A stretch of 64,000 nt of DNA from Candidatus Micrarchaeia archaeon. GTDB lineage: Archaea > Micrarchaeota > Micrarchaeia > CAILAH01. The notes beneath the pieces were generated by a model, which worked only from the letters and a program-made list of their open reading frames with translations, ran no database searches and was not told where the DNA came from. The translations under genes and the position numbers were made by a program. Of this stretch, positions 1,877-61,830 are shown piece by piece. The stretch is taken from NCBI GenBank assembly GCA_038874595.1, contig JAVZCB010000001.1:59609-123608 (forward strand). The letters run 5' to 3'. Position 1 is the stretch's first letter; each line of letters starts with the position of its first letter.

Positions 1877-2233
1877 TTACAGCAGGAAATCCTTTGATGC
1901 CTTTCCCTTTGGAAAGACAGGGATGCCCTTTGCCCTCACAGGCAATCCGGTTTCTTCGGCAACCGCAGACAATTCGTTTATTGGTATAAGCATATCACAA
2001 TCAAGCAGCTTGTAAGGCCCGGCAGCGGACGGCTCTGCAACCATCCTGAAGACAACACGCTGGTATATCCCGCCCGCCCTTTTCACGCGCAGTATCACCG
2101 ACCCGCCCGCCTTGAAATCAATATGCTTTTGAGATGCCACACAATCACCATTTTTAACCAATACTCTTACCTTCTTTATATCCTGTAAGATAACTAACTT
2201 TGCAGAATTCATTCCTTTTCCTGTGCACAGCAA
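1877..2233 (-). CDS. Hypothetical protein (true start probably near 2140-2161)
   Basis: Co-oriented with and downstream of rnhC; GGTGA SD-like motif before GTG at 2140. Confidence 0.55.
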   Translation of the reverse strand: MLCTGKGMNSAKLVILQDIKKVRVLVKNGDCVASQKHIDFKAGGSVILRVKRAGGIYQRVVFRMVAEPSAAGPYKLLDCDMLIPINELSAVAEETGLPVRAKGIPVFPKGKASKDFLL

Positions 2234-2999: not shown

Positions 3000-3050
3000 T
3001 GGTGATACTTCTGCACAAATGATTTAAAGTTATGGCACAAAGAAAAAACG

Positions 3051-3563
3051 ATGGTCCAGTACCCAATCCCATTTGTTGCCGGGATAATAGAGAAGAAGAT
3101 TAATGGCAGGACGCACATCTTGCTGCAGACACGCTGGAAATTCAGTGTTAGCCCAAAATATTCTGGGCTGTATGAGCTGCCAGGCGGTGCGGTTGAAGCC
3201 GGGGAGAACGTGTATGATGCACTTAAGCGTGAGATTAAGGAAGAGACAAACCTTGATGTGAAGCGGTTTATAAACCTCAATGTCACTGATGACATAAGCA
3301 ATATAGATGGTGATTCCGCGTTTGGCTTTATGCCGTTCTGCTGTACCCAGATGACAAAGCCAATTTATTTTGTTGGGTTATTTTTTGTGTGCGAGGCTGA
3401 GGAAGGCCAGTTGGTTGCAGGCAAGGATGAGGCAAAGGACCCTCACTGGGTCAGTTTGGACGATCTTGCTGTAATGCTCAGGAAAGAGCGTAGGAAATTC
3501 TTTACGCCGCACCTTCCAGCGCTTGATATGTACATGCAGTTGCGTGGTGGCAGCATGCAATAA
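3051..3563 (+). CDS. NUDIX hydrolase
   Basis: Nudix box PGGAVEAGENVYDALKREIKEETNL. Confidence 0.92.
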   Translation: MVQYPIPFVAGIIEKKINGRTHILLQTRWKFSVSPKYSGLYELPGGAVEAGENVYDALKREIKEETNLDVKRFINLNVTDDISNIDGDSAFGFMPFCCTQMTKPIYFVGLFFVCEAEEGQLVAGKDEAKDPHWVSLDDLAVMLRKERRKFFTPHLPALDMYMQLRGGSMQ

Positions 3564-3588
3564 ACATTACCTTGCGGGAAGTTAGCGG

Positions 3589-4539
3589 CTATTTTTGCAG
3601 GATACCGCTTGTGGAGATTTCTAGTATGAGGTATATTATGTAGAACAGCAGGAGGTATAACCCTTCCTGGCGTGTAAGTATCCTTCCGGAGCGCAGGAAG
3701 TAAATGAGCAGTGCACCCGCAAAGAACATCATCCCGCCAGTAACGTATATGTAGGTGGGATTAAAATTAATTGGGTGTATCAGTGCAACTATACCTAACA
3801 GTATCGTTGCGTCTATTATTACGTTGCCCAGTATATCCCCGAGTGCAAGCTCACTATGGTTTGATGTTACTGCTTTGATTGAGAACACGAGTTCAGGCAT
3901 GCATGTACCAATTGCAACAAGCGTGAGTGCTATCAGGAAAGGTGGCACACCTATCTCGGTTGCAAAGCTAACACTGAACTTGACAGTGTAGTATGCTCCA
4001 CCAATCAGTGCGATAATGGTTACCACCAACAGCACCAGATTGGCAATCCAGCTAAGGTTTTCAGCATGGTTAAATTTCCTGCTGAATCTTTTCCTTTGCA
4101 TCAGGAGTGTTGTAAAGAACAGCAAACCGCTTATGATTAGTATAAGGCCGTCAAAGCGCGTTATGTTTCCATCAAAGCCCAAGAGCAAAGGAACAAGGAG
4201 CAGTATGAGATAGAAGAAGTTGCTTTTCAGAATTTCACTTTTTACAGTTATCCCATTTTTTGAGAATAATGCAACTACCCCAAACACCATTGCCAGGTCT
4301 GCAACGTTTGAGCCAAGAAGTGTGCCGAGCCCAAATTCGGGTGTGCCTTCAAGCGCGGAAACTATAGATACCATAGCTTCAGGAAAGCAGGACATTACAG
4401 CAATAAAGAAAAAGCTTACTATGAACTCTGAGATATGGAATATCCGTGCAAGGCGGGATGCATAGGTTATTGCATACTCTGCGCTTTTAATTAATACAAG
4501 TATTGATACGAGAAGCAGAGTAAGGCTTACCAGCACCAT
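3589..4539 (-). CDS. Sodium:calcium antiporter (CaCA/YrbG family)
   Basis: About 10 TM segments; two alpha repeats (SCFPE...GSNV; GTCMPE...GNVI). Confidence 0.88.
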   Translation of the reverse strand: MVLVSLTLLLVSILVLIKSAEYAITYASRLARIFHISEFIVSFFFIAVMSCFPEAMVSIVSALEGTPEFGLGTLLGSNVADLAMVFGVVALFSKNGITVKSEILKSNFFYLILLLVPLLLGFDGNITRFDGLILIISGLLFFTTLLMQRKRFSRKFNHAENLSWIANLVLLVVTIIALIGGAYYTVKFSVSFATEIGVPPFLIALTLVAIGTCMPELVFSIKAVTSNHSELALGDILGNVIIDATILLGIVALIHPINFNPTYIYVTGGMMFFAGALLIYFLRSGRILTRQEGLYLLLFYIIYLILEISTSGILQK

Positions 4540-4604
4540 ATGCCATTATTACAGATAATCATTTATAAAATGTGCCTCTTTGATGAGATATATTTCTGTT
4601 AGTA

Positions 4605-6119
4605 TTACAGGAATGCCTCCACATCCTCTTTTCTCTGGGATTGCCTTTTCTCATACTCTCGTGCCAGCGATTCAAGGTCGATGCCATTTGCCTGGAACTC
4701 ATACTTTCTTTTTCGTACTCTCACAAATATAGGTTGTACAACCGCTTCACCAACGACGAGCGCCTCACCGGTTTTCAGTGTTGTGATGCTACTGAGCATA
4801 TAATTATCAATGCCCTCACAGCTTTCACCTATATGCTTGATATCGTAGGGGTTGGTCACACGAAGTATGATGTGTGTGTTGCACTGTGACAGTGCAGTTG
4901 TGCTAAGCCTTACAGGGCGCTGTGTTATCAGGCAGAGCGATGCGCCGAACTTCCTGCCTTCGCGTGCAATCCGTTCTATCTCATGTTTTGATAACATTTC
5001 CTCGCGTTTTACGCCTTCAGCTGCAAAGTTGTGCGCCTCTTCCACAACAAGCAAAAAAGGAGGTATCTTCCCTTTTTTGATAGCATTGAATAATCTGCGT
5101 GCAAAGTATGCCACAATTAGCTGTTTTTTCTTTTCACTATCTATTTCCTTGAAAGAGATTATGCTTATGTGCCCGGGCTTTACAAGAGTGGTCACCGTTG
5201 GGTCATCAACCTTTCCGAAAAGCTTCATCTTATGCAGGGAATCAAGATGGTCAAGAAGCGCGTCTCGTGTAGATATAGCTTTCTTATCATCAATCCCGGA
5301 GATGTCTATCATCAAGTCCTTGATTGTGAAGAACTTATGCTCAAGCATGGCTTTGCGCTTATGCTCATAAAATGTTGTGTTGAGCATTCTCTTTTGCGGC
5401 CCGCTCAGCTGGTGGAAGAAGGGAAACATCTCAGGCTGAGCATTTTTCGTGCTTATCCGTATTTTTGATGCATCGTAGATAGTGATACGGTCAGAAAACG
5501 CTGCACCCTTCATATTAGCATACTCACCGTGCATATCAAGAACTACAACACCTATCCGCCCATCCTCCGGCTTTCGCTCGAGCAGCTCCTCAAGCAGGAC
5601 ACTCATAAGGTATGATTTACCCGCACCAGACATTGCCAGGATTGCTACATGTTTCTGGAACAGCTTTGATAAGCCGAGCCGTACATCAACATCGTGATTG
5701 AGCAGTTTCCCTATGTTAAGCCCATTTTGCTTAAACCCGAGGTATTTCTCAAGCATGTGCTCATCAACAGTGAGCACTTCCGAGCCGGGTGCTGGCGGGA
5801 ATGAGCACCTGTGCAGCAAGTTCCCATCAAAAATCCCAATGATTCTGCACTCCGCAATCGTATAACTCCATTCGCTTACAGGAAAATGTGATGACATCAT
5901 CCCAGCACGCTCATACTCAGCAACGCTTTCAGCACGCTCAAAGTACCTATTTGAGCGGAATATGTCATTTACAACAGCTACAAGCGTTCCAGCCTCGTGG
6001 TGCATCTCAACAAATTGGCCTTTCCTGACGAGCCCAATCGCATCGTCGCTAATCACAAACGCAAATTTTGCAGTGTTCGGCGAGTCTATTAATGAGATTA
6101 CTGTCCCGAGCTTTACCAT
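4605..6119 (-). CDS. herA: HerA-family ATPase/helicase
   Basis: N-terminal HAS barrel, HVAILAMSGAGKS, DMHGEY, EEAHNF, REGRKFG, TQRP motifs. Confidence 0.88.
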   Translation of the reverse strand: MVKLGTVISLIDSPNTAKFAFVISDDAIGLVRKGQFVEMHHEAGTLVAVVNDIFRSNRYFERAESVAEYERAGMMSSHFPVSEWSYTIAECRIIGIFDGNLLHRCSFPPAPGSEVLTVDEHMLEKYLGFKQNGLNIGKLLNHDVDVRLGLSKLFQKHVAILAMSGAGKSYLMSVLLEELLERKPEDGRIGVVVLDMHGEYANMKGAAFSDRITIYDASKIRISTKNAQPEMFPFFHQLSGPQKRMLNTTFYEHKRKAMLEHKFFTIKDLMIDISGIDDKKAISTRDALLDHLDSLHKMKLFGKVDDPTVTTLVKPGHISIISFKEIDSEKKKQLIVAYFARRLFNAIKKGKIPPFLLVVEEAHNFAAEGVKREEMLSKHEIERIAREGRKFGASLCLITQRPVRLSTTALSQCNTHIILRVTNPYDIKHIGESCEGIDNYMLSSITTLKTGEALVVGEAVVQPIFVRVRKRKYEFQANGIDLESLAREYEKRQSQRKEDVEAFL

Positions 6120-6195
6120 ACTACTAAATATGCCTATGATGTATTAAAAGCAAACGCCAGCAGTTTTCCTGTTATTTTTTGGAGAACAAGAAACA

Positions 6196-6339
6196 CGGGC
6201 CCGATGGGAAATTCAGCATTACAGAATTTTTTCTGTTTCGGTAGTGCATTTGAACCCATACTCCAGGGTAACCTCTGTTCTCCACGTTTGGAGCGGGCAT
6301 TCGAAGCCCTGTAGGCTATCCAGGCTACCTCACGGGCCC
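6196..6339 (-). tRNA. tRNA-Arg(TCG) with two BHB introns (37/38: 6270-6300; 59/60: 6210-6248)
   Basis: GGGCCCG acceptor stem, D arm AGGT/GCCT, CAGGG-CTTCGA^A-CCCTG, ATGGG-TTCAAA^T-CCCAT; both inserts form bulge-helix-bulge motifs. Confidence 0.92.
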
Positions 6340-6477
6340 GAGCATCTTATCCCAAGGCAATAATATAAATTAAATGCTTTACGGGATAGCTTGCTTTTTT
6401 GCAGCTGCATACGCCTGGAAGTAGTTTGATGCTTTTCCACGTGCATAAACCAATATAAAGTTATCCGGGCTGAATAT

Positions 6478-6548
6478 CTGTGGATGTGGGCGTGCATCTC
6501 TTTAGAGAGGTGCCTGCTTTATTAAGCAGATGCCTGAACTTAAGGTGA
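6478..6548 (+). promoter_or_regulatory. Candidate eL15 ribosomal-protein leader (3-way junction)
   Basis: GGGCGT/ATGCCT closes hairpins GCATCTCT/AGAGGTGC and CTGCTT/AAGCAG; lies between TATA (6452-6460) and SD AGGTGA of rpl15e. Confidence 0.55.
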
Positions 6549-6552
6549 TATA

Positions 6553-7074
6553 ATGGGTTACTACAAATACCTAACGGAGACTTTTGTAAAGGAATGGAAA
6601 GAGAAATCCCCTGAGTACAGGGAACGGCTCGTTGCATGGAGAAAAGAGCCGCCGATTGTGCGTGTTGAGCGGCCGCTGAACATTTCACGTGCGCGTATTC
6701 TTGGCTATAAGGCAAAGAAGGGGTTTGTTGTTGTCCGTGTCAGGATTGCAAAGGGCAACAGGAAGATTTCACGGCCGGTGAGGGGCAGGAAACCATCCCG
6801 TTCCGGGAGGTTCTTCTCTGCACAATTATCTGACCAGGCAATAGCCGAGCAGAGGGCAAACCGCAAGTACAGGAACCTTGAAGTGCTTAATTCATACTGG
6901 GTTGGTGATGATGGCACAAGCAAGTATTATGAAGTAATTCTTGTCGACCCGGCAAGGAAAGAGGTTGAGGTGCTTGCCAAGAACCGTAATGGGCGCGCGT
7001 TCAGGGGCTTAACAAGCGCAGGCAGAAAAGCGCGCGGGCTCAGGTTCAAGGGAAAAAGAAGGCCTAAACAATGA
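6553..7074 (+). CDS. rpl15e: 50S ribosomal protein L15e
   Basis: ARILGYKAKKGFVVVRVR, NLEVLNSYWVG, YYEVILVDP, GRAFRGLTSAG. Confidence 0.97.
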   Translation: MGYYKYLTETFVKEWKEKSPEYRERLVAWRKEPPIVRVERPLNISRARILGYKAKKGFVVVRVRIAKGNRKISRPVRGRKPSRSGRFFSAQLSDQAIAEQRANRKYRNLEVLNSYWVGDDGTSKYYEVILVDPARKEVEVLAKNRNGRAFRGLTSAGRKARGLRFKGKRRPKQ

Positions 7075-7574
7075 GCCGGTACTTTGACCTTCACGTGCGG
7101 TTTGACTGGAAGAATTTTTCATCTGAGGGCTACTGTAAGGTATTTTGCCCAAACATAATTGCTGGCGGCAACAGGTACGACCCTGCGCGCATCAACATTG
7201 CAGTTGTTTCAGACTCTGGCAGGCCACTTCCGCCCAAATATGACCTTGTGAGTTTCAAGGGGTTTGCAGTAAACGTTGACCATCTTGCATTAGTGCGTGA
7301 GAAAAAGCGGGCCGTGGAAGTTTGCATTGCAGAGGTTAAGCAGGCACTTCTTAGTGGCCGCATACACCAGGCAAGGTTTTTCTGTGATGCGCTGCGCTCG
7401 TACAAGGTCCCGTTTGTGTTCACATCAGGTGCATCAACCGTTTATGAAGCCAAATCACCAAAAGAGATGGCTTTTATAGGTGAGTTGCTTGGTTTTACTC
7501 AACGTGAGGTGCTTCTTTCAATCAGCGATACCGCAGTGGAGATTTTGAATGAGAAGGGATATGACTATGCATAG
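7071..7574 (+). CDS. rnp3: RNase P protein Rpp30 (divergent)
   Basis: YFDLHV start, FTSGA...KSP motif; canonical position after rpl15e. Confidence 0.75.
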   Translation: MSRYFDLHVRFDWKNFSSEGYCKVFCPNIIAGGNRYDPARINIAVVSDSGRPLPPKYDLVSFKGFAVNVDHLALVREKKRAVEVCIAEVKQALLSGRIHQARFFCDALRSYKVPFVFTSGASTVYEAKSPKEMAFIGELLGFTQREVLLSISDTAVEILNEKGYDYA

Positions 7575-33784: not shown

Positions 33785-33948
33785 GGGCCCGTAGCTCAGC
33801 CTGGATAGAGCGGCAGCCTTCTAGTCCTTTTTCTTTCTTGCAGGCAAGAAAGAAAACCGGCACTAAAAGAAAGAAATGGAGGCGTGTCCAGTAATGCGCT
33901 TCAGGATAAGTAAGCTGAGGGTCGTGGGTTCAAATCCCATCGGGCCCG
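33785..33948 (+). tRNA. tRNA-Arg(TCT) with 89-nt intron (33824-33912)
   Basis: GGGCCCG acceptor, GCTC/GAGC D arm, CAGC-CTTCTA^A-GCTG, GTGGG-TTCAAAT-CCCAT; relaxed BHB. Confidence 0.93.
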
Positions 33949-51673: not shown

Positions 51674-52285
51674 ATGGATAAAAAAACTGTCTTTGAAATT
51701 GTTAAAAAATTACAATTTGACACTAAAAAAATTATTTACAAAAAAGGTAATACCTCTGTATATATTATAAGACCATCTAAATTATCTAAGCGATTTAATG
51801 AGTATGATGTGCATAAGAATTTCCAGATATTCCTTAGGATTGGTGAACGTGAATTTAGGCCAAATCATCTTAGGGTGATGATTGATCTTAACCTAAGGAT
51901 TCGCAGCCGCCCTGAACTGAAGAAAAAGCTACTCCTAGCGTTTGACAATATATTCTATGGAGCAGATCCAGAAAAGGAACTGAAAGCTCTGTCCCGACAG
52001 AAGTTTGAGCATTTTCTAAATGATTTGATAGTTATTGGTACACTTGCCCAATTATTTGTGATTGAGCAGGAATATTGTTATCACAGAAAAAGTAATTTTG
52101 ATCCACCAACTCTCTTTTTTCAGGGCTGGGTTAGGGAATTTCTAGATAATCCTAAGGAAATAGATAATTTGTGCATGAGCGTTTGTAAAGGCCTACCTCC
52201 ATTACAAAAATATGTATCTCGTGAAAATAAGAAAAGCAAAAACTATTCAAAGAAACTTAAGCCCCTTTGGTATCTTAAATCTTAA
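51674..52285 (+). CDS. Hypothetical protein, putative restriction endonuclease
   Basis: Convergent with the MTase with overlapping stops; no clear PD-(D/E)xK or HNH motif. Confidence 0.5.
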   Translation: MDKKTVFEIVKKLQFDTKKIIYKKGNTSVYIIRPSKLSKRFNEYDVHKNFQIFLRIGEREFRPNHLRVMIDLNLRIRSRPELKKKLLLAFDNIFYGADPEKELKALSRQKFEHFLNDLIVIGTLAQLFVIEQEYCYHRKSNFDPPTLFFQGWVREFLDNPKEIDNLCMSVCKGLPPLQKYVSRENKKSKNYSKKLKPLWYLKS

Positions 52286-53055
52286 TTCTCGGACCATGCT
52301 TCAACAAGTTGCTTCTGAACTGCACCTAGGCGTTTTTTGGCAATTTCAATGTATTTTTCTTCTTTGTCTATACCTATTGAATTCCTATTAAGCATCTTTG
52401 CCGCTACCGATGTTGTTCCTGAGCCAACAAATGGATCTAGGACAGTATCACCTTCATTTGAAGTTGCAAGTATGATCCTCTTCAATAACTCTAGGGGTTT
52501 TTGGGTTGGATGAATACCATATTTTTTTTCACTCTTTGGTGTTAAAGGTATTTCCCACACATTACGCATTTGCTTGCCTTTATTTATAGATTTCATCAGT
52601 TCATAATTAAATACCCATTTCTTGTTGCTATGATTCTTTGTTGCCCAGATAAGATGTTCTGTGGATTCAGTAAACATGCGACACGTTATGTTTGGCTGGG
52701 CATTTGGCTTGAACCATACGATTGAATTGTTAATCTTTGCCTCATATATATGCTGAAGGATAAAACCAATCTGATAAATGTTATGGAACGAGCCACATAC
52801 CCAAAAGCTCCCACCATGCTTCAAAACTCTCATACATTCCTTTATCCACTTCTGATTGAACTTAAAGAATTCGTCTTTCTCAAATATGTCCCATTCTTCT
52901 GTAAGCGTTATGTGTTTGCTATATGCCCATCCCAGACCCTTCTTTTTCGCTAATCCATAAGGCGGGTCAGCAAATATCAGGTCAACTGATTCATCAGGCA
53001 TTTTCTTTAGCTCCTCAATTGCATCACCAATAATCAGCTGGTGAGTGGTCTTCAT
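52282..53055 (-). CDS. Beta-class N6-adenine/N4-cytosine DNA methyltransferase (DpnA/CcrM-like)
   Basis: DPPY precedes HPTQKP and DPFVGSGTT; GKQMRNVW. Confidence 0.92.
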   Translation of the reverse strand: MKTTHQLIIGDAIEELKKMPDESVDLIFADPPYGLAKKKGLGWAYSKHITLTEEWDIFEKDEFFKFNQKWIKECMRVLKHGGSFWVCGSFHNIYQIGFILQHIYEAKINNSIVWFKPNAQPNITCRMFTESTEHLIWATKNHSNKKWVFNYELMKSINKGKQMRNVWEIPLTPKSEKKYGIHPTQKPLELLKRIILATSNEGDTVLDPFVGSGTTSVAAKMLNRNSIGIDKEEKYIEIAKKRLGAVQKQLVEAWSEN

Positions 53056-53118: not shown

Positions 53119-55716
53119 CTAATAGCTATTCTCAAACTCCTTATAATGCTGGAAGAACCACTGCTTTACTATTTCTGTTGTGATGCAGTACAGGAACACG
53201 ATCCCGAACACGATTGCAATATCAAGCGCGGATGGAACTGCAAAATTGAAATATTGGCCCACCGCGGGAAGTGAGACCACCGCAACCGCAGCGGCTGTGA
53301 TAAACAGCGAAGATGTGATTAGCAGCCTGCTTGGTATGCTTGCAAAGAACGGCCCGCGCGTTCTCACTATGAATGTTATGAATATCTCGGATAGCAGCGA
53401 TTCAAGGAACCAGAGCGTTCGCAGCAGTGCCGCCCCTACGCCTAACACGTAATAGAATACTAATATGGTGAGCAGGTCAAACAGTGAGCTTAACACACCG
53501 AAGAATACCATGAAATGCGAGATCATCTTGACATTCCATTTCTTAGGTGTCTTGATAGATTTCTCATCCACGTTATCTGTTGATATTGCGAGCATTGGGA
53601 AATCGCTGAGGAAGTTGTTCAATAATATCTGTACCGGAAGAAGCGGTATAAATGGAAGAAACAGCGGTGATATAATTACAGTGCCCATATTACCGTAATT
53701 TGCGCTTATTGTGTTGAGTATATATTTTGTAATATTAGCGAACGTTTTCCTGCCCTCACGCACACCATCTGCGATTACCCTGAGGCTCTTATGTGTCAGG
53801 ACAACATCCGCTGCCTCTTTTGCAACGTCCTGTGCGGTATTTACTGAAATCCCCACATCAGCAAGCCGGAGAGCTGGTGCATCATTAATACCATCACCCA
53901 TAAACCCGACGATGTGGCCGTTTGCACGGACAGCTTCAAGGATTCTTACTTTTTGTGCAGGTGTAACACGCGCAAACACATTGTATTTCTCAACAACCTC
54001 GTGTAATTTTTTATCATCTATATTATCAATCTCCTTGCCGGTGATTACGCGTTTTCCCTTAATCTCGAGCTTTACATCCTTACATAATCTCTTTGTAACA
54101 TCCGGGTCATCACCGGTTAAAAGCATCAGTGATATGTCCAATTCCTTAAACTGCTTGATTGATTCAATAGCAGTTCTCTTAGGCTCGCTCTTAAAGAGCA
54201 TAAACCCTTCCAACGTTAGCTCGCGCTCATCTGCAACAGAGTAATCATTCTTTTGTGGGACGGCTCGTGAAGCCACTGCGAGTACAGAGTATCCTTCCTT
54301 TGCAAACCCCCGCACAATCTCATTTATCTTTTTCCTAACACTATCAATCTCAGTTTTCTTGCCGTTGATGTTGGCATAAGCACATACAGAGAGCACAGAT
54401 TCTGCCTCACCTTTTGTTATAAGCACAATCTCCTGTCGTGATTTTCGCTTGCTTGTTTTCTGTGATATTTTAAACACTTCGCTCATCCGTTTCCTTTCAT
54501 AATCGAACGCAATATCATCAATGTTTGCATACCCATCCGGCTTTTGGATATGATGAAGGTTCGCATATCTGATTATTGCAGTATCATATACATTTCCAGA
54601 AATGTGTTTGCCGTGCGTATGCGCATGACTGCACAGCAACCCATATTTCAGGACACCCCAATCATCATTACCTAACGGTGCAACAGTTTTCTCAAGCATA
54701 AGTTCCGGCTCGGTAAGCGTACCGGTCTTATCCATTAGCAGCACGTCCATGAGCCCAACATCTTCGATTGTGGCGAGCTTTTTAACCACGACTTTCTTCT
54801 CAGCCATCTTAAGTGCACCTGCAGACAACGTGATGGTAGTGATTGCAGGAAGCATCTCAGGTGCAATGCCAACAGCCACTGCAAGTGCAAACAATAAAGA
54901 TTCAAGGATACCCCTGCCAAGATATGAGTTTACAGCAAACACAAATATTGTCATTATTACAATGACCTGGAGTGTGAACGTACTGAACTTCCTGATATTA
55001 ACCTGGAAATCAGATTCAGGTATCTTTGCTGAGTATAGTGTAGCGGTCCTGCCAAAATGCGTAGATTGACCCGTGGCAACCACTATACCTTTTGCAGTAC
55101 CGTAAGTTACAGTGGTCCCCATAAGTGCATAATTCTTAAGCTCATATGCTGCCGGCCGTGCAAGCTTAATAGGCGCCGTACTTTTCTCAACCTCGCGCGA
55201 CTCACCAGTTATTGCAGATTCATTCGTACGGAAATCTTCACATCTGACCAAACGCATATCCGCAGGCACAACGTTCCCGATCTCAAGCAGGACCACATCA
55301 CCGGGTACAAGGTCCTCCGCATTGATTTCTTCCTGCCGTCCATCACGTATTACAACAGCCTTATTTGAAAGATACCTCTTGAGCTGGCGTAGCGAGTTTT
55401 CTGAACGGTACTCTTGATAGAACCCGAGCAGTGCACTTAACAGCAGTATCGCTATAATCGTGAGCCCCTCTGTTGTATCCCCAATGTATAAAGCTATGAC
55501 TGAGGCAAAAATTAGTATGAATATGAAAGCGTTATTAAACTGCGAAAGCAGTATCTCAAGCCATGAACGCCTGTCCCTCTCTGGGATTGAGTTCCTTCCG
55601 TAAACCATTCTCCTGCGTGCAACTTCATGTGCGCTTAGCCCTTTCTCAGGATCAACCTTAAGTGCAGCTGCAACTTGATAGCTTTCCAATCGCCAATATT
55701 CACTATTGTTATTCAC
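53119..55716 (-). CDS. mgtA: Mg2+-translocating P-type ATPase
   Basis: TGES, PEMLP, DKTGTLT, GDGINDAPAL, ANYGNM, QILLNN; GTG start at 55716. Confidence 0.9.
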   Translation of the reverse strand: MNNNSEYWRLESYQVAAALKVDPEKGLSAHEVARRRMVYGRNSIPERDRRSWLEILLSQFNNAFIFILIFASVIALYIGDTTEGLTIIAILLLSALLGFYQEYRSENSLRQLKRYLSNKAVVIRDGRQEEINAEDLVPGDVVLLEIGNVVPADMRLVRCEDFRTNESAITGESREVEKSTAPIKLARPAAYELKNYALMGTTVTYGTAKGIVVATGQSTHFGRTATLYSAKIPESDFQVNIRKFSTFTLQVIVIMTIFVFAVNSYLGRGILESLLFALAVAVGIAPEMLPAITTITLSAGALKMAEKKVVVKKLATIEDVGLMDVLLMDKTGTLTEPELMLEKTVAPLGNDDWGVLKYGLLCSHAHTHGKHISGNVYDTAIIRYANLHHIQKPDGYANIDDIAFDYERKRMSEVFKISQKTSKRKSRQEIVLITKGEAESVLSVCAYANINGKKTEIDSVRKKINEIVRGFAKEGYSVLAVASRAVPQKNDYSVADERELTLEGFMLFKSEPKRTAIESIKQFKELDISLMLLTGDDPDVTKRLCKDVKLEIKGKRVITGKEIDNIDDKKLHEVVEKYNVFARVTPAQKVRILEAVRANGHIVGFMGDGINDAPALRLADVGISVNTAQDVAKEAADVVLTHKSLRVIADGVREGRKTFANITKYILNTISANYGNMGTVIISPLFLPFIPLLPVQILLNNFLSDFPMLAISTDNVDEKSIKTPKKWNVKMISHFMVFFGVLSSLFDLLTILVFYYVLGVGAALLRTLWFLESLLSEIFITFIVRTRGPFFASIPSRLLITSSLFITAAAVAVVSLPAVGQYFNFAVPSALDIAIVFGIVFLYCITTEIVKQWFFQHYKEFENSY

Positions 55717-55889
55717 AGGACCACATAAATACTTCTGCCAAATACTTAAAAAGGCATTATGTTGTACATGCACGCGCAGGATGAGGGTGCCTGGTAGCAC
55801 GGTGGTAGCAGAATTTTAAATCCGGCAAGTGCGCAACTGGAAACCTTCATACAGAGCGCTTTTATAACTCAGGTTGTAGAATATCTACC

Positions 55890-56873: not shown

Positions 56874-56925
56874 CCTCAGAGAAGCGTACATATTATGCTT
56901 TTATATGTTGGCTGCCTACTATAAA

Positions 56926-56983
56926 ATGGCGATGAAGCTCGCCGGCACAAAAGCGAACCGCCAAAGTTGGCTGATAGCTTCTG
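56926..56983 (+). promoter_or_regulatory. Fluoride (crcB) riboswitch
   Basis: GGCGATGAAGCTCGCC...AACCGCC-AAAGT-TGGCTGATAGCTTCT; P1 GGCGA/TCGCC, pseudoknot GAAGC/GCTTC, conserved GAUG and CUGAU. Confidence 0.85.
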
Positions 56984-57004
56984 GTTTTACACGAAGGTGG
57001 TTTT

Positions 57005-57157
57005 ATGGTGTACTTTTGCCCATATTGTAACATGAGTAACGGGCTAACCTCGGTTCTCACTGAGGATGCACAGTCAGGTGAGCTGGTATGCAAGTACGAT
57101 TCACAGCACAGGTTCACAGTCGGGCGTGACGGGTTCCTAAAAGTGGTTAACAAGTAG
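57005..57157 (+). CDS. 50-aa Zn-ribbon protein (CPYC...C-x5-H)
   Basis: MVYFCPYCNMSNGLTSVLTEDAQSGELVCKYDSQHRFTVGRDGFLKVVNK; SD GAAGGTGG; missed by the ORF track. Confidence 0.75.
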   Translation: MVYFCPYCNMSNGLTSVLTEDAQSGELVCKYDSQHRFTVGRDGFLKVVNK

Positions 57158-57210
57158 TTTGTGTATCCTGTCCAGCACAGTAAAATCAATATACAGTCTG
57201 GTGGTGCAGT

Positions 57211-58962
57211 TTGGTGATGGACGCTGGAAGATTTGAATCACTTGGTAGTGAGATTCTCAGCGTTATCGATACGCTTAAGCAGTATAGCGGGGCACCTGAG
57301 AAACGGCTTGGCCAGATTGCCGAAAACATCAGGTGTGGCTCGTTTACACTTGCAGTTGCTGGGCAATTCAAGCGTGGCAAGACGACACTCATAAACGCGC
57401 TTTTAGGTATGGGCTTGTTGCCTACGGGAGTGGTGCCGCTTACATCGATAGTGACCTATGTCCGGTATTCCCCGGAAATTAAGGCGCGTGTGAAGTTGGC
57501 TGGTGGTGAGGAGAAAGCAATTGCTATCGATGAGATAAGCCAATATGTAACAGAGAAGCATAATCCCAAGAATATCAAAGGCGTTCAGGAAGTTGATGTT
57601 TGGGTGCCCTCAGCATTCCTTAGGAATGGTGTGGTGATTGTAGACACACCGGGTATTGGGTCAACGCACGCGCATAACACAGAGGTGACGCGCCGGTTTC
57701 TTCCTGAAGCAGATGCGGTTATATTTGTGCTTTCAGGAGACCCGCCAATAACCGAATCCGAGTGCAGGTTTCTTGAGGAGAGTGCAAAGTATGCATCAAA
57801 ATTCTTTTTTGTGCTGAACAAAATTGATTATTACGAGGAGCACGAGGTTGCAGAACTTGCAGAGTTTAATCGTGGCGTGCTTGCATCCAGGCTTGGTGTG
57901 AGGCAGGATGATGTGCGCTTGTACCCACTGTCAGCAAAACGCTCACTTGGCAGGAAGCTAGCTGGTTTAACTCATGAAAATGACGGACTTACAGAGTTTG
58001 AGAATGCACTTGCGGAATATATTTCTTCAAACAAGGGCGTGCTCATACTGCAGTCTGCCATGTCAAAGTTGAGATATTTTACGGATGAGCTTATAAACCA
58101 GCGCCAGATAGAAAGAAGCAGTCTTTCAGCATCAGCGGCACAGTTAGAGGAGCGTGTTAAAAAATTTGATGCTGAGCTGAAACGTATCCTGTCCAAGAAG
58201 GAATACATGGGTGATTTTGTCGCAGTTGAGCAAAAGAAGATAATGTCTATTATTGATGATGATATTAATGAACTGAAACGCGCTGTAACAGCATCACTTG
58301 AGCAGCAGATAGTTGAGTTTGCTCAATCCCTCAAGACCACTGACAATTATAAGTATGCAGTTGAAGTTGAGGAATATTCCAACGACCATATCTTGGATGT
58401 GCTGGAGCCGTGGCGCACAAAAGAGGAGGAGAAGGTTGCCGGGATTTATGCTGAGAAGATGAATAAATATTCTGGAGAGATAAACGCAATAATTGAGGAA
58501 GTTGAGAAGACTGCATCTGGCCTGTTTGATGTTAAGATAGAAAGCAGGAAAACAGAGGAGAAGTTTACGCTCGAAAGTGCGTTTTATTTCAAGCTTGGGA
58601 GGATTGAGGAGGGTACCGGGCTGTCAATGCTTGAGATGGTGCTTCCGCACCCATTATTCAGGAAAAAGCTTCTTGCCAACCTGCCTGATTATATACGTGA
58701 AGACCTTGACAGAAACTGTGGCAGGGTACGGTATGACTTTTATGAGCGCATACAAAAGAGCTCGCTTGTGTTTATTGAGATGCTTGATGATAAAGTGGAT
58801 GCGGCAATTAATGGTATACGCAGTGCTAGTGAGAATGCACTCAAGCTGCGCGCGCAGGGAAACGAGAAGGTACGCGAGCGCATAGCCCAGCTTGATACAG
58901 AGTTAAGCCACCTGCGCAGGTTGCAGGACCGTCTTGCATCAATCAATCCGCACGTAGTGTGA
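57211..58962 (+). CDS. Dynamin-like GTPase (bacterial DLP family)
   Basis: G1 GQFKRGKT, G2 VPLT, G3 DTPG, G4 NKID, long helical stalk. Confidence 0.9.
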   Translation: MVMDAGRFESLGSEILSVIDTLKQYSGAPEKRLGQIAENIRCGSFTLAVAGQFKRGKTTLINALLGMGLLPTGVVPLTSIVTYVRYSPEIKARVKLAGGEEKAIAIDEISQYVTEKHNPKNIKGVQEVDVWVPSAFLRNGVVIVDTPGIGSTHAHNTEVTRRFLPEADAVIFVLSGDPPITESECRFLEESAKYASKFFFVLNKIDYYEEHEVAELAEFNRGVLASRLGVRQDDVRLYPLSAKRSLGRKLAGLTHENDGLTEFENALAEYISSNKGVLILQSAMSKLRYFTDELINQRQIERSSLSASAAQLEERVKKFDAELKRILSKKEYMGDFVAVEQKKIMSIIDDDINELKRAVTASLEQQIVEFAQSLKTTDNYKYAVEVEEYSNDHILDVLEPWRTKEEEKVAGIYAEKMNKYSGEINAIIEEVEKTASGLFDVKIESRKTEEKFTLESAFYFKLGRIEEGTGLSMLEMVLPHPLFRKKLLANLPDYIREDLDRNCGRVRYDFYERIQKSSLVFIEMLDDKVDAAINGIRSASENALKLRAQGNEKVRERIAQLDTELSHLRRLQDRLASINPHVV

Positions 58963-58967
58963 TATGA

Positions 58968-59177
58968 ATGGGTGATGCTTTATTGCCATTATTTCCAATC
59001 GCAATAATTTTTCTTGTCCTGCTTGGTGTAATGGTATTTTTGCGCACATATATCCATTTTCCAAGGATGGCGTGGCCAGAAAGAGTTATGCTCGCGTTCA
59101 GGAACGCTTTCTATATGGTACTCTTGATAATCATCCTGTGTATCATTTTTCTTATTTTGGTCCCTTACCTGGTTTAG
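58968..59177 (+). CDS. Small 2-TM membrane protein
   Basis: 69 aa, two hydrophobic helices, 5 nt after the dynamin stop. Confidence 0.65.
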   Translation: MGDALLPLFPIAIIFLVLLGVMVFLRTYIHFPRMAWPERVMLAFRNAFYMVLLIIILCIIFLILVPYLV

Positions 59178-59451
59178 GGCATTTCTTATTATAACCTAGC
59201 GCTTCAAGTATAGCATATACGCGCTTGTTCCTTATTTCATAAAATACTCGCCGCCCCATTCTTTTAGATGATATAACACCAAGCCTCTCAAGCTTTTTGA
59301 GCTGTAATGAAACAGTAGGTTGGGCCTTTTTAACCTGTGGGAATATCTTACATACGCATAGTTTTCCGTTGAGTAGCAGCTCTACTATTCTGAACCGCGT
59401 ATCATCGGCAAGTGCCTTAACGAGCTTGATAGCATCTTCTCTTGTGCGCAT
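59152..59451 (-). CDS. arsR: ArsR/SmtB transcriptional regulator
   Basis: KALADDTRFRI, LCVC, QPTVS.QLKKL. Confidence 0.9.
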   Translation of the reverse strand: MRTREDAIKLVKALADDTRFRIVELLLNGKLCVCKIFPQVKKAQPTVSLQLKKLERLGVISSKRMGRRVFYEIRNKRVYAILEALGYNKKCPKPGKGPK

Positions 59452-59793: not shown

Positions 59794-60921
59794 GTGGTAT
59801 TTATGGAGAAAGAAGATTATGTACAGCTTGCAGTAATCGTTGGCGTGTTCCTTCTGTTTTACCTGCTTCCGCCAGATGCGGATTGGCTCAACAAATCAGT
59901 TCAGAGCGGTTTGGTGTTGCTTAGTGAATACGCAAAACAGCACGTCCTTACCTGCCTTGTCCCAGCACTTTTTATTGCTGGTGCGATTTCCGTGTTCATA
60001 AAAAAAGATAAAATCCTGAAATATCTTGGTGCGGAAGCAAACCTGGCTTTCTCATATCTGATTGCATCTGTTACAGGCGCAATACTTGCAGTATGCTCGT
60101 GCACAATATTACCATTGTTTGCCGGGATACGGAAGAGAGGCGCCGGGCTGGGCCCCGCAGTTACGTTCTTGTTTGCTGGTCCGGCAATCAATATTGCAGC
60201 CATCTTTCTCACATTTTCAGTGCTCGGGGTATGGATTGGCCTTGGGCGTGCGGTCGCATCAATAGTGCTTTCCATAATCATAGGGCTAACGATGGCGGTT
60301 CTGTTTAAAGAGGAAACAGAGAAGGGGAAACTCTTTATTGAGGAGAACGAGGAGGCAAGGGTTTCTGATAAAGTGCTTTTGCTATTCTTTGGTTTTTTGG
60401 TAGGTATACTGGTTGTGAACGGATTACAAATGGAGCAACTCACAAAATATCTGATTATTGGCCTGTTCACGCTTGCAGTTGTAGTGCTGGTCTTACTTAA
60501 ATTCAGGGATAATACTCGTGCCAAATGGCTTAGCGAAACATGGTCATTCTCAAAATCAATACTCCCGATGCTTTTTATAGGGGTATTTATTGCAGGGTTT
60601 ATAATGCCTTTAATCCCAGAACAGCTGGTAGTGCAGCTTGTTGGCAAGAACTCCATTGAAGGCAACCTGGTCGCATCTGTGTTTGGTGCAGTGATGTATT
60701 TCTCAACACTTACAGAAATACCTATATTACAGGTGCTTATTGCAAAAGGTATGAATACCGGGCCGGCACTTGCACTACTGCTTGCAGGCCCTTCTTTGAG
60801 CTTGCCAAATATGTTAGTTATAAGGGGAATTCTTGGGACAAGAAAGGCCCTCGCATATATCGTGCTTGTTGTGGTATACTCTACAATTGCAGGGTATATG
60901 TTTGGTGCACTGATGGCTTAA
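59794..60921 (+). CDS. arsP: ArsP/DUF318 permease
   Basis: HVLTCLVPA, AVCSCTILP, GPAIN, YFSTLTE, AGPSLSLP. Confidence 0.85.
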   Translation: MVFMEKEDYVQLAVIVGVFLLFYLLPPDADWLNKSVQSGLVLLSEYAKQHVLTCLVPALFIAGAISVFIKKDKILKYLGAEANLAFSYLIASVTGAILAVCSCTILPLFAGIRKRGAGLGPAVTFLFAGPAINIAAIFLTFSVLGVWIGLGRAVASIVLSIIIGLTMAVLFKEETEKGKLFIEENEEARVSDKVLLLFFGFLVGILVVNGLQMEQLTKYLIIGLFTLAVVVLVLLKFRDNTRAKWLSETWSFSKSILPMLFIGVFIAGFIMPLIPEQLVVQLVGKNSIEGNLVASVFGAVMYFSTLTEIPILQVLIAKGMNTGPALALLLAGPSLSLPNMLVIRGILGTRKALAYIVLVVVYSTIAGYMFGALMA

Positions 60922-60987: not shown

Positions 60988-61830
60988 TTATATGCCGCCA
61001 AGGATGTATGCAACTATGCCTAGCATCAGTGAATATAATGAAATCTTCCTACCAATCTCCTGTTTTTCCCTGCTACCGTAAGATAGATATGCTGCATAAA
61101 AAAGCCCAATAACAGAGCCGAGTGCCGGGATTACGTATGCATAGTTATTTTTTAATGGTGGAACTGCAAAGAAGAGGTAAAGCGCAATCGCAGATGCTAT
61201 TATTATAAGAAATACCGATAGGTGCAATGACGCCTGCGTGCCGATGAGCACCGGCAATGTTTTTGAGTGCCTGGCTTTTATGTCACCTTCAATATCCTGC
61301 ACAGTTTTTTGTAGTTCTCTCCCGAGCCCAGATAGGAATGAAGTTGCACATATCATTAATGTGAGCTGTGAAACAGTACCCGCAAGTGCAACCTCGGTGA
61401 AAATGAACACTATTGCCATTGATGATGCGATGATTACGTTTCCCACGAGTGCAGTATCCTTGAGCTTCCAGTCATATAACACCGAAAGTGCCGCAAAGGC
61501 CACGGCTATAGCAAACGCAGGGATGCCAAGGGGATAAGCGCACGCAATACCCACCAGCAAAAGCAGTATGGCTATCCTTAACGCATCCCCTTTGCTAATC
61601 TCATCCCTTACAATCGGCCTATCTTTCTTGTTTATTTTATCGCTTTCAGCATCAAAGTAATCATTGAGTGCAAACGCACCTGCTGAAATAAGAAACGGGC
61701 ACAGGAAAAGCAATGCTAACTGGGCGGGTGTGGCGTTAAGATCCAGAAGAAGGATTGCTACAACCACACCGAGCATGAGCATTATTGAGTGCTCAATCCT
61801 TACCAGTTCAGTAATTGCTTTCAATCGCAT
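60988..61830 (-). CDS. UbiA prenyltransferase (probable DGGGP synthase)
   Basis: NDYFDAESDKINK.DRP, GRELQKTVQDIEGD. Confidence 0.85.
   Translation of the reverse strand: MRLKAITELVRIEHSIMLMLGVVVAILLLDLNATPAQLALLFLCPFLISAGAFALNDYFDAESDKINKKDRPIVRDEISKGDALRIAILLLLVGIACAYPLGIPAFAIAVAFAALSVLYDWKLKDTALVGNVIIASSMAIVFIFTEVALAGTVSQLTLMICATSFLSGLGRELQKTVQDIEGDIKARHSKTLPVLIGTQASLHLSVFLIIIASAIALYLFFAVPPLKNNYAYVIPALGSVIGLFYAAYLSYGSREKQEIGRKISLYSLMLGIVAYILGGI

What the first reader, a model, noticed from the sequence alone, without database searches (positions are those of the whole stretch)
56926..59177. Fluoride riboswitch controlling a Zn-ribbon microprotein, a dynamin-like GTPase and a 2-TM protein, with no fluoride exporter nearby
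Seen: a near-consensus crcB aptamer at 56926-56983. AACCGCC (56956-62) and CTTC (56978-81) can alternatively pair with the SD region GAAGGTGGTT (56993-57002), which fits a translational ON switch. Downstream are an unannotated 50-aa CxxC...C-x5-H protein, a dynamin-like GTPase and a small membrane protein. Established: fluoride riboswitches usually drive Fluc/CLC-F exporters or fluoride-sensitive enzymes, and bacterial DLPs remodel or repair membranes. Inference: a fluoride-responsive membrane-remodelling module in a DPANN-like archaeon, possibly an undescribed fluoride response. It sits beside mgtA and an ArsR/ArsP operon in a toxic-ion cluster.
Basis: partly seen in the sequence, partly recalled or inferred. 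Interest (0 to 1): 0.85.

Follow-up and report, generated by a model that had tools for sequence, protein, structure and literature searches.

The report
Fluoride riboswitch driving a dynamin-like operon
A genuine fluoride-sensing RNA switch in a tiny Micrarchaeota genome heads an operon for a zinc-binding microprotein, a dynamin-like membrane GTPase and a small membrane protein, and relatives of this GTPase sit behind fluoride switches in many other microbes, pointing to an undescribed membrane-based response to fluoride.

Summary
Rfam RF01734 matches 56919-56990 at 41.2 bits (cut-off 34). P1, P2 and the pseudoknot are supported by covariation. The three ORFs are real.

The interpretation gained support after first looking wrong. 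The dynamin-like protein (DLP) occurs in only 4 of 401 sampled Micrarchaeia genomes. Three of those four carry it in a fluoride-riboswitch operon.

Of 80 metagenomic loci retrieved by DLP homology alone, 45 have a gathering-level RF01734 hit upstream on the same strand, 34 within 400 nt. The DLP is the first ORF after 33 of 62 riboswitches. Neighbours are known fluoride-regulon genes: enolase, USP, CPA2 antiporter, HAD, CrcB.

The 50-aa C2CH microprotein is a Micrarchaeota-specific family with no Pfam domain. It lies directly behind a fluoride riboswitch in 7 of the 30 best loci.

No CrcB or CLC was found in this genome, which is 93.5% complete.

Five literature searches found no paper linking fluoride riboswitches to dynamins. 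Baker 2012 and its supplements could not be read.

What the DLP does is inferred. Co-transcription in this genome is unproven.

The parts
56900..56908 (+). Putative archaeal TATA-like box (TTTTATATG), about 20-28 nt upstream of P1
   Evidence: Read from the sequence. An A/T-rich box sits at the same distance in all 15 Micrarchaeial riboswitch loci printed. Inferred, not tested.
56919..56990 (+). Fluoride riboswitch aptamer (crcB motif, RF01734). P1 56928-31/56940-43; pseudoknot 56934-39/56976-81; P2 56960-63/56968-71. A short extra hairpin lies in the P1-P2 linker.
   Evidence: 41.2 bits against gathering score 34, E 5.5e-8. Pair counts and covariation on 14 relatives.
56993..57002 (+). Shine-Dalgarno region (GAAGGUGGUU) of the microprotein gene; proposed target of the anti-SD CUUC (56978-81)
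   Evidence: Sequence. The minimum-energy fold pairs CUUC with GAAG. In about half of the 14 relatives the SD pairs with the aptamer's 3' tail (my reading of the folds). Inference.
57005..57157 (+). 50-aa C2CH zinc-ribbon-like microprotein (C5, C8, C29, H35)
   Evidence: Translation. The four ligands are invariant in 34 homologs. AlphaFold2 pLDDT 87.6. Family of 40 database proteins with no Pfam domain. Directly behind RF01734 in 7 of 30 loci.
57217..58962 (+). Dynamin-like GTPase, 581 aa from the ATG (the ORF opens at TTG 57211). G1 GQFKRGKT, G3 DTPG, G4 NKID; helical stalk; conserved FYFKL tip motif. Residue numbers in this report follow the 583-aa translation from the TTG.
   Evidence: The database protein at 100% identity is 581 aa. 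The clade is linked to RF01734 in 45 of 80 loci.
58968..59177 (+). 69-aa protein with two hydrophobic segments; starts 5 nt after the DLP stop codon
   Evidence: Translation. Homologs lie in the four other archaeal-clade DLP loci: directly after the gene in L057 and L058, upstream of it in L060 and L061. A similar 65-82-aa family occurs in 7 bacterial-type DLP loci, once with its own riboswitch in L073.
53119..55800 (-). Context: Mg2+-translocating P-type ATPase (mgtA)
   Evidence: TIGR01524, 696.5 bits against cut-off 610.75. On the opposite strand, so not under the riboswitch.
59152..59451 (-). Context: ArsR/SmtB regulator, convergent with the operon and overlapping its end by 26 nt
   Evidence: NF033788, 77.3 bits against cut-off 55. 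44% identical to the ArsR inside G013's riboswitch operon.
59794..60921 (+). Context: permease of the SaoE / SO_0444 type
   Evidence: E 1e-34, below the curated cut-offs. 39% identical to the permease in G013's riboswitch operon. Relatives are found in 4 of 83 DLP loci.

Best explanation
The aptamer at 56919-56990 is a functional fluoride riboswitch of the translational ON type, transcribed from an archaeal promoter just upstream.

Proposed switch. Without fluoride, the 3' strand of the pseudoknot (AGCUUC) is free, and its CUUC pairs with the purine-rich Shine-Dalgarno region 12 nt downstream. With fluoride, the pseudoknot closes, the Shine-Dalgarno region is released and the 50-aa zinc-ribbon microprotein is translated.

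Proposed operon. The dynamin-like GTPase lies 59 nt further on. The 2-TM protein follows 5 nt after its stop. Both most likely ride on the same transcript.

Wider setting. The three genes belong to a pool of fluoride-regulon genes that Micrarchaeia shuffle behind this riboswitch:
- the microprotein;
- a roughly 290-aa protein with squalene-cyclase-like repeats;
- the DLP;
- the 2-TM protein;
- a CPA2 antiporter;
- rarely CrcB.

The DLP belongs to a clade of about 585 aa, marked by GQFKRGK(T/S) and (L/I/M)ESxFYFKL. Members of this clade are frequent direct targets of fluoride riboswitches in metagenomic loci, where they sit in fluoride islands. Named relatives of this DLP come from several bacterial phyla and from Methanocella.

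Most likely function (inferred). The DLP is a fluoride-induced membrane-maintenance or remodelling GTPase, with the 2-TM protein as its membrane partner.

Shown: the aptamer, its structure, the gene families and the conserved linkage. Inferred: the switching mechanism, co-transcription in this genome, and what the proteins do.
For: Aptamer: 41.2 bits against 34; 96.4% paired, pseudoknot 100% paired, 6 pairs with double changes.

Layout: in 15 of 15 Micrarchaeial examples a TATA-like box precedes P1, and the SD and start codon follow the aptamer within about 10-30 nt. CUUC pairs with GAAG in the minimum-energy fold.

Microprotein linkage:
- 99 of 401 class genomes encode a homolog.
- 7 of the 30 best loci have RF01734 directly upstream, across 3 families.
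- Of 9 gathering-level riboswitch genomes among the 151 sampled, the first gene is the microprotein in 4, CPA2 in 2, the repeat protein in 1, crcB in 1, and unclear in 1.

DLP linkage:
- The DLP is in 4 of 401 class genomes. G000, G154 and G264 have RF01734 at the head of the operon (46.1 and 45.8 bits in the latter two).
- L060, with a DLP 53% identical, reads riboswitch, microprotein (52% identical), repeat protein, DLP.
- Of 80 metagenomic loci chosen only by DLP homology, 45 have a gathering-level RF01734 hit upstream on the same strand, 34 within 400 nt.
- The DLP is the first ORF after 33 of 62 riboswitches.
- Neighbours by number of loci: USP 18, MFS 16, enolase 14, CPA 14, HAD 6, CrcB 4.
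- On the tree, G000's DLP sits in a 5-row clade with L057, L058, L060 and L061 (support 100), and riboswitch-linked rows occur in most subclades.

DLP identity.

No CrcB or CLC was found in G000. None was found in the other riboswitch-bearing Micrarchaeia checked except G076.
Against: - No expression data exist. No RNA-holding run was listed.
- The 59-nt spacer before the DLP holds an A/T-rich stretch (AAAATCAATATAC, 57182-57194) about 25 nt before the ATG. This could be an internal archaeal promoter, so fluoride control of the DLP in this genome is not shown.
- 35 of 80 DLP loci have no gathering-level RF01734 hit upstream. Twenty of those were screened only with my own model, and some are cut short upstream. 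Two subclades (9 and 8 rows) mostly lack one.
- The two same-genus genomes (81% and 64% complete) yielded neither the DLP nor the microprotein.
- Most microprotein homologs (23 of the 30 best loci, and five Fermentimicrarchaeum-type loci) have no gathering-level RF01734 hit; one of them (L032) has a sub-threshold match at 30.8 bits. The five Fermentimicrarchaeum-type loci have their own promoter-like box instead.
- In the folds, the SD is sequestered by different partners in different relatives. The anti-SD model is therefore plausible but not uniform.
- Nothing computed here says what a DLP would do against fluoride.
Confidence: 0.7

Rival explanations
1. The DLP is a fluoride-sensitive target, not a protective effector. 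Metal-fluoride complexes mimic the gamma-phosphate in GTPases (established biochemistry, recalled). The cell may simply make more of an inhibited enzyme, as is proposed for enolase and pyrophosphatase.
For: Enolase, a classic inhibited target, is the neighbour in 14 DLP loci and is itself riboswitch-driven in L119 and L123. The review passages read describe compensatory over-expression of inhibited enzymes. All GTPase motifs are intact.
Against: In many loci the DLP appears to be expressed only through the riboswitch: transcription terminators follow the aptamer in the bacterial-type loci inspected. A housekeeping enzyme needing top-up would be expected to have a constitutive copy. The DLP is absent from most relatives (4 of 401), so it is not an essential target.
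Confidence: 0.15
2. In this genome only the microprotein is fluoride-controlled. The DLP and 2-TM pair has its own promoter, and its position is a remnant of an ancestral riboswitch, microprotein, repeat-protein, DLP operon like that of L060, from which the repeat-protein gene was lost.
For: An A/T-rich box lies in the 59-nt spacer. The riboswitch plus microprotein unit is monocistronic in G043, G048 and G328. G000 has no repeat-protein homolog.
Against: No T-run terminator follows the microprotein stop codon. In L057, L058 and L060 the DLP is tightly packed in the riboswitch operon, with overlapping or short spacers. The linkage of this DLP clade to RF01734 is general.
Confidence: 0.2
3. The 50-codon ORF is only a leader ORF whose translation matters and whose product does not.
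For: It is short, comes first after the switch, and is sometimes the only gene under control.
Against: Four metal ligands and G43 are invariant across 34 homologs that average 33-54% identity to it. The fold is predicted with confidence (pLDDT 87.6). The family also occurs without any riboswitch, with its own promoter-like box, and in 2-5 copies per genome in one family.
Confidence: 0.05

Closest known systems
Fluoride riboswitch (crcB motif, Rfam RF01734), translationally acting members
   Same: Full-length match above the gathering score. P1, P2 and the pseudoknot are kept. It lies in the 5' leader of a gene, and archaeal occurrence is already known (Weinberg 2010, PMC2864571, passages read).
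   Different: The genes it drives are not in the lists I could read. Those lists name Fluc/CrcB, CLC-F, Na+/H+ antiporters, pyrophosphatase, HAD, enolase, formate hydrogen lyase, mutS and K+/Cl- transport (passages read). The Micrarchaeial aptamers carry an extra short hairpin in the P1-P2 linker. Some carry inserts of about 50 nt.
IniA of mycobacteria (PDB 6j72/6j73) and BDLP of Nostoc (2j68/2j69)
   Same: Same overall build: an N-terminal dynamin-type GTPase followed by a long helical stalk, and about 600 aa. Sequence E 8.4e-18 and 1.4e-22. Fold E 6e-22 and 2.2e-24, TM about 0.44-0.50. IniA is, like this protein, a stress-induced DLP (entry title 'Isoniazid inducible gene protein IniA').
   Different: Only 16-19% identical in the structural alignments. 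The inducer here would be fluoride, acting through an RNA switch. The clade has its own tip motif, FYFKL. The membrane paddle is not confidently modelled (residues 448-470, pLDDT below 50).
DynA (NCBIfam NF052648) and LeoA (NF041922) bacterial dynamins
   Same: Best NCBIfam hits, E 2.3e-19 and 3.9e-7.
   Different: Far below the curated cut-offs: 68.8 against 1600 and 29.5 against 325. This is a single-module DLP of 581 aa, whereas the DynA profile has 1187 positions.
Small zinc-ribbon proteins (for example the 61-residue protein of PDB 2jny)
   Same: Two metal knuckles (CPxC and C-x5-H) on short beta-hairpins in about 50 aa. VIA Z 3.3 to 2jny and Z 4.1 to the Rieske cluster-binding subdomain.
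   Different: No match is strong enough to show kinship: all Z below 5, and no Foldseek E at or below 0.001. No Pfam family. No NCBIfam hit.

Membership tests
Fluoride riboswitch (RF01734) | Covariance-model score at or above Rfam's gathering score over the full model | tested here: met
   41.2 bits against 34, model positions 1-64 of 64, E 5.5e-8.
Fluoride riboswitch (RF01734) | P1 and P2 helices plus a pseudoknot between the P1 loop and the 3' tail, kept through compensatory change | tested here: met
   14 pairs, 96.4% paired, pseudoknot 100% paired, 6 pairs with changes on both sides. 0 of 500 shuffles reached the observed value on four of five measures. Slid registers gave 34-61% paired.
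Fluoride riboswitch (RF01734) | Sits in the 5' leader of a gene, with an expression platform overlapping the aptamer's 3' end | tested here: met
   SD 3 nt and ATG 14 nt after the aptamer end. Same layout in 15 of 15 relatives. CUUC pairs with GAAG in the fold.
Fluoride riboswitch (RF01734) | Binds fluoride and changes gene expression | not testable with these tools
   Needs in-line probing and a reporter assay.
Dynamin-like proteins (BDLP / IniA type) | Dynamin-type GTPase domain with G1-G4 motifs | tested here: met
   GQFKRGKT (51-58), T78, DTPG (145-148) and NKID (203-206) are read. These positions are invariant or nearly invariant in 20 orthologs. Precomputed Pfam PF00350 on the identical database protein.
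Dynamin-like proteins (BDLP / IniA type) | Long helical stalk (neck and trunk) folding back on the GTPase domain | tested here: met
   AlphaFold2 helices 260-305, 309-373, 379-439, 480-548 and 551-577. Foldseek: 2j69 E 2.2e-24, 6j72 E 6e-22.
Dynamin-like proteins (BDLP / IniA type) | Membrane-binding tip or paddle | tested here: inconclusive
   The tip loop 448-470 has pLDDT below 50. It carries the clade-invariant FYFKL. No lipid binding can be computed.
DynA (NF052648) and LeoA (NF041922) equivalogs | Score above NCBI's curated cut-off | tested here: not met
   68.8 against 1600, and 29.5 against 325.
Zinc-ribbon microproteins | Four conserved metal ligands in two knuckles | tested here: met
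   C5, C8, C29 and H35 are invariant in 34 sequences.
Zinc-ribbon microproteins | Fold match to a solved zinc ribbon | tested here: inconclusive
   Best VIA Z is 4.1 (Rieske subdomain); 2jny scores Z 3.3. No Foldseek E at or below 0.001.
Fluoride exporters (Fluc/CrcB, CLC-F), somewhere in the genome | A CrcB (TIGR00494) or CLC (NF003640) homolog is present | tested here: not met
   0 matches in G000. The controls rang in 11 and 12 of 14 known genomes. The genome is 93.5% complete, so absence is not proven.

The most novel reading that the evidence does not exclude
A clade of roughly 585-aa dynamin-like GTPases is a dedicated effector of fluoride resistance, often with a small 2-TM partner and, in Micrarchaeota, a zinc-ribbon microprotein. 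It would act at the membrane, for example by sealing, remodelling or shedding membrane under HF/F- stress. In organisms such as this one, where no Fluc or CLC-F was found, it would be the main or only fluoride defence. Fluoride would then be the first defined physiological inducer of a prokaryotic dynamin clade, delivered through an RNA sensor.
Probability: 0.3. Interest if true: 0.9.

Novelty: new variant of a known kind. Interest (0 to 1): 0.8.

Why it matters
The physiological roles of prokaryotic dynamin-like proteins are largely open. A riboswitch names the inducing signal without ambiguity. If this clade really answers to fluoride, its function becomes testable with a cheap, specific inducer.

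For fluoride biology, the finding adds a membrane GTPase, a 2-TM protein, a squalene-cyclase-repeat protein and a zinc-ribbon microprotein to a regulon so far described as exporters, antiporters and inhibited enzymes (passages read).

It also raises the question of how cells in which no Fluc or CLC-F was found cope with fluoride. CrcB was found in only 6 of 401 sampled Micrarchaeia genomes.

The same loci offer many natural 'fluoride islands' with 2-4 riboswitches each, suitable for comparative work.

Tried and rejected
1. My first reading was that the DLP is a one-off insertion and the association is not conserved. This rested on 60 relatives with no DLP and on monocistronic riboswitch plus microprotein units. 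I rejected it after the 401-genome search, the Rfam scan and the metagenome loci.

2. The search for related loci with the single DLP protein in metagenome contigs found no relative. It was repeated with the 20-row alignment.

3. Complex prediction with the DLP alignment and the 2-TM alignment gave 'no answer', score 0.00. This is no evidence either way.

4. The look-up of sequencing runs listed no RNA holder.

5. The microprotein fold search gave nothing clear. Foldseek against pdb had no E at or below 0.001. VIA wide had a best Z of 4.1. The ESM Atlas gave only generic small zinc-binding or 'insertion element' clusters at 0.92-0.93.

6. NCBIfam found no family for the microprotein or the 2-TM protein.

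7. Literature searches:
- 'fluoride riboswitch' with 'dynamin': 0 papers.
- 'riboswitch', 'fluoride' and 'dynamin-like': 0 papers.
- 'riboswitch', 'fluoride' and 'dynamin': 0 papers.
- 'crcB' with 'dynamin': 7 papers, all on eukaryotic cell biology by title.
- 'fluoride riboswitch' with 'GTPase': 8 papers, none relevant by title or abstract.
- Broader searches gave the review PMC11139923 (passages read), PMC7266159 (passages) and PMC2864571 (passages). None mentions a dynamin or a zinc-ribbon microprotein.
Its gene tables may already list a dynamin-family GTPase, and I could not check.

9. The weak second RF01734 hit in the genome (21 bits, contig C3) is a decayed aptamer lacking the pseudoknot 3' strand, beside what looks like a tRNA gene. 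It is not a second switch.

10. A motif scan of the six frames for CLC signatures found nothing.

11. Small ORFs between riboswitch and DLP in 10 bacterial-type loci: only terminator hairpins with T runs, no microprotein.


Full report
**What is in the window.** Rfam's covariance model for the fluoride riboswitch (RF01734) matches 56919-56990 on the + strand over its whole length. The score is 41.2 bits against a gathering score of 34 (E 5.5e-8). It is the only gathering-level match in the 917,795-base, 7-contig genome, which is 93.5% complete.

Downstream lie three ORFs:
- a 50-aa ORF at 57005-57157;
- a 583-aa ORF at 57211-58962, of which the database copy is 581 aa and so starts at the ATG at 57217;
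- a 69-aa ORF at 58968-59177, starting 5 nt after the previous stop.

I aligned 14 Micrarchaeia aptamers and counted pairs for P1, the pseudoknot and P2.
- 96.4% of cells pair.
- The pseudoknot pairs in every sequence.
- Six of 14 pairs show changes on both sides.
- No shuffle of 500 reached the observed values on four of five measures; 55 of 500 did on the fifth.
- Slid registers fall to 34-61% paired.

**What the proteins are.** The long protein is a dynamin-like GTPase.
- By sequence it matches BDLP (2j68, E 1.4e-22), IniA (6j72, E 8.4e-18) and the Campylobacter DLP pair.
- Its G1, G3 and G4 motifs are intact.
- The AlphaFold2 model (pLDDT 78.8) shows a GTPase domain, a long helical stalk and a poorly modelled tip at 448-470.
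- Foldseek ranks BDLP and IniA first, at E 2e-24 and 6e-22.
- It fails the curated cut-offs of the DynA and LeoA models by a wide margin. It is therefore a dynamin-like protein but not one of those families.

The 50-aa protein has no NCBIfam or Pfam family.
- C5, C8, C29 and H35 are invariant in 34 homologs.
- The predicted fold is confident (pLDDT 87.6).
- It matches no solved structure clearly: best Z is 4.1, to a Rieske cluster-binding subdomain, and Z is 3.3 to a small zinc-ribbon protein.
- The gene caller behind the database recorded only a 41-aa version that starts after the CPxC motif (P0163). The conservation of that motif shows the 50-aa reading is the right one.

The 69-aa protein has two hydrophobic segments and no family.

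**Lineage.** Relatives of the microprotein in named records are Micrarchaeota MAGs. The closest DLP and microprotein homologs are labelled Bilamarchaeaceae, Bilamarchaeum or Micrarchaeota. A tRNA with a 91-nt intron lies in the window. The genome is small. 'DPANN-like archaeon' is right.

**A false start.**
- Among 60 relatives, six had the riboswitch, but none of those six had the DLP behind it. No relative had a clear DLP homolog, only a weak GTPase-domain match in G011.
- In two genomes of another family the riboswitch drove a 47-aa homolog of the microprotein as a single gene, with a convergent neighbour.
- At that point the microprotein looked like the real target and the DLP like a passenger.

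**The microprotein is a recurrent target.**
- A profile of the family finds it in 99 of 401 sampled genomes of the class, often in 2-5 copies in one family.
- Of the 30 best-scoring loci, seven have a gathering-level RF01734 hit directly upstream. They come from three families and six genera. One more (G078) has a sub-threshold variant with a roughly 50-nt insert.
- Of nine gathering-level riboswitch genomes among the 151 sampled, the first gene is the microprotein in four, a CPA2 antiporter in two, a roughly 290-aa squalene-cyclase-repeat protein in one, crcB in one, and unclear in one.
- In G280 the order is riboswitch, microprotein, CPA2 antiporter.
- Against this, most homologs have no gathering-level riboswitch. 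Five Fermentimicrarchaeum-type loci instead have their own TATA-like box.

**The DLP association is conserved after all.**
- The DLP is rare in the class: 4 of 401 genomes.
- Three of the four (G000, G154, G264, in three different families) have RF01734 at the head of the operon. In G154 and G264 the order is riboswitch (46.1 and 45.8 bits), repeat protein, DLP, 2-TM homolog.
- The fourth (G317, 30% identical) has none.
- A metagenomic contig with a DLP 53% identical (L060) reads riboswitch, microprotein (52% identical), repeat protein, DLP, with the 2-TM gene divergent upstream.

I then retrieved loci from metagenomes by DLP homology alone. 548 relatives were found and the best 80 kept, at 29-53% identity.
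- A model built from the Micrarchaeial aptamers found a same-strand hit within 400 nt upstream of the DLP in 36 loci, and further upstream in 12.
- Rfam's own model at its gathering score confirmed 34 of the 36 and 11 of the 12. That makes 45 of 80.
- Sixty of the 80 loci were put to Rfam. Of 12 loci negative with my model, 11 stayed negative, and one had a riboswitch downstream of the DLP.
- The DLP is the first ORF after 33 of 62 gathering-level riboswitches in these loci.
- In the 10 bacterial-type gaps I printed, most show a hairpin with a T run after the aptamer. This indicates transcriptional control there.

Neighbours in these loci are the known fluoride regulon (names and my reading):
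- universal stress protein, 18 loci;
- an MFS transporter, 16;
- enolase, 14;
- CPA antiporter, 14;
- the repeat protein, 11;
- HAD, 6;
- a roughly 240-aa family I read as DUF190-like (recalled, no family hit), 6;
- CrcB, 4.

Several loci hold 3-4 riboswitches. Some loci are near-duplicates, so the counts are not fully independent.

On a FastTree phylogeny, G000's DLP sits in a 5-row clade with L057, L058, L060 and L061 (support 100). That clade is sister to L062 plus L068. Riboswitch-linked rows occur in most subclades, while two subclades of 9 and 8 rows mostly lack one.

**The 2-TM protein.**
- Homologs occur in all four other archaeal-clade DLP loci.
- A family of 65-82 aa with the same TM, short conserved loop, TM layout occurs in seven bacterial-type loci, once with its own riboswitch in L073.
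- Only 7 of 71 loci with room have a small TM ORF right after the DLP. It is therefore an accessory part, not a constant one.

**How the switch probably works.**
- All 15 Micrarchaeial examples have an A/T-rich box about 20-35 nt before P1, an SD within a few nt after the aptamer, and a start codon about 10-30 nt after it. There is no room for a terminator.
- In this sequence the minimum-energy fold, which ignores the pseudoknot and so approximates the ligand-free state, pairs CUUC (56978-81, the 3' strand of the pseudoknot) with the GAAG of the SD.
- By my reading of the folds, about half of the 14 relatives likewise pair the aptamer's 3' tail with the SD. The others sequester the SD with other partners.
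- Fluoride-driven closure of the pseudoknot would free the SD. This is inference.

**No exporter.** G000 gave no CrcB and no CLC, and no CPA2 or repeat-protein homolog.
- CrcB was found in 6 of 401 class genomes, none of them a riboswitch plus microprotein or riboswitch plus DLP genome.
- CLC was found in 0 of 10 other riboswitch-bearing genomes checked.
- These genomes are 81-98% complete, so absence is not proven.

**What it does.** Nothing computed here shows function.
- The best-supported reading is that this DLP clade is a dedicated member of the fluoride response acting at the membrane.
- A rival is that it is a fluoride-inhibited GTPase made in excess.
- In this genome a promoter in the 59-nt spacer cannot be excluded.

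**Novelty.** Five searches combining fluoride, riboswitch or crcB with dynamin or GTPase found nothing relevant. The passages I read from a 2024 review, a 2020 review and the 2010 discovery paper do not list a dynamin or a zinc-ribbon microprotein. The 2012 paper that defined the regulon, and all supplements, could not be read. Prior tabulation cannot be ruled out.

**Verdict.** The finding is real, and its boldest part, a fluoride-linked dynamin module, is supported by conserved linkage well beyond this genome. Mechanism and physiology remain to be tested.

Noticed in passing
window 33785-33948 (+): tRNA gene with a 91-nt intron (RF00005, 46.4 bits), typical of archaea.
   Followed up: no
G000 contig C3:149254-149302 (-), locus L002 (outside the window): Decayed fluoride aptamer (21.3 bits). 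P1 and P2 are recognisable, but the 3' pseudoknot strand is missing. It lies beside what looks like a tRNA gene on the other strand. The same-genus genome G002 has an intact aptamer (39.5 bits) followed only by a 17-codon ORF.
   Followed up: partly
L032/L056 (G078) and L055 (G114): Fluoride aptamers with inserts of about 50 nt, in the P2 loop or in the P1-P2 linker, score 30-35 bits. In G078 two of them flank the microprotein gene: switch, microprotein, switch, next gene. In G114 the variant precedes a CPA2 antiporter whose frame is broken.
   Followed up: partly
alignment A4 (14 Micrarchaeia aptamers), window 56944-56955: A short extra hairpin (3-4 bp, loop of 4-6 nt) sits in the P1-P2 linker of the Micrarchaeial aptamers and seems to covary (TGCC/GGCA, GGC/GCC, AGC/GCT). 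It was not counted formally because the alignment register differs for the window's row.
   Followed up: no
L012 (G013) 3485-7213; L057, L058, L060, L061: A 287-307-aa protein with weak squalene/hopene-cyclase repeat hits is another riboswitch-driven gene. It comes first after the switch in G013, G154 and G264, and occurs in 11 of 83 DLP loci. In G013 the same operon continues with ArsR, a thioredoxin-like protein, a permease 39% identical to window 59794-60921, and a CPA-like protein.
   Followed up: partly
L010 (G043) 2082-3362 (-): Enolase, the classic fluoride-inhibited enzyme, ends just upstream of the riboswitch plus microprotein unit on the same strand.
   Followed up: no
L119, L123, L134, L068: Metagenomic 'fluoride islands' with 3-4 gathering-level fluoride riboswitches within 7.6 kb. 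Each precedes a different gene: DLP, a NuoH/formate-hydrogenlyase-like subunit, a HEAT-repeat protein, enolase, CPA or MFS.
   Followed up: partly
window 57032-57157: The public gene call for the microprotein is a 41-aa version that starts at the internal ATG and omits the conserved CPxC knuckle (P0163).
   Followed up: yes
window 52282-53055 (-) and 60988-61830 (-): A CcrM-like adenine DNA methyltransferase (E 3e-76, below cut-off) and a UbiA-type prenyltransferase of the archaeal lipid pathway type (E 1e-64, below cut-off).
   Followed up: no
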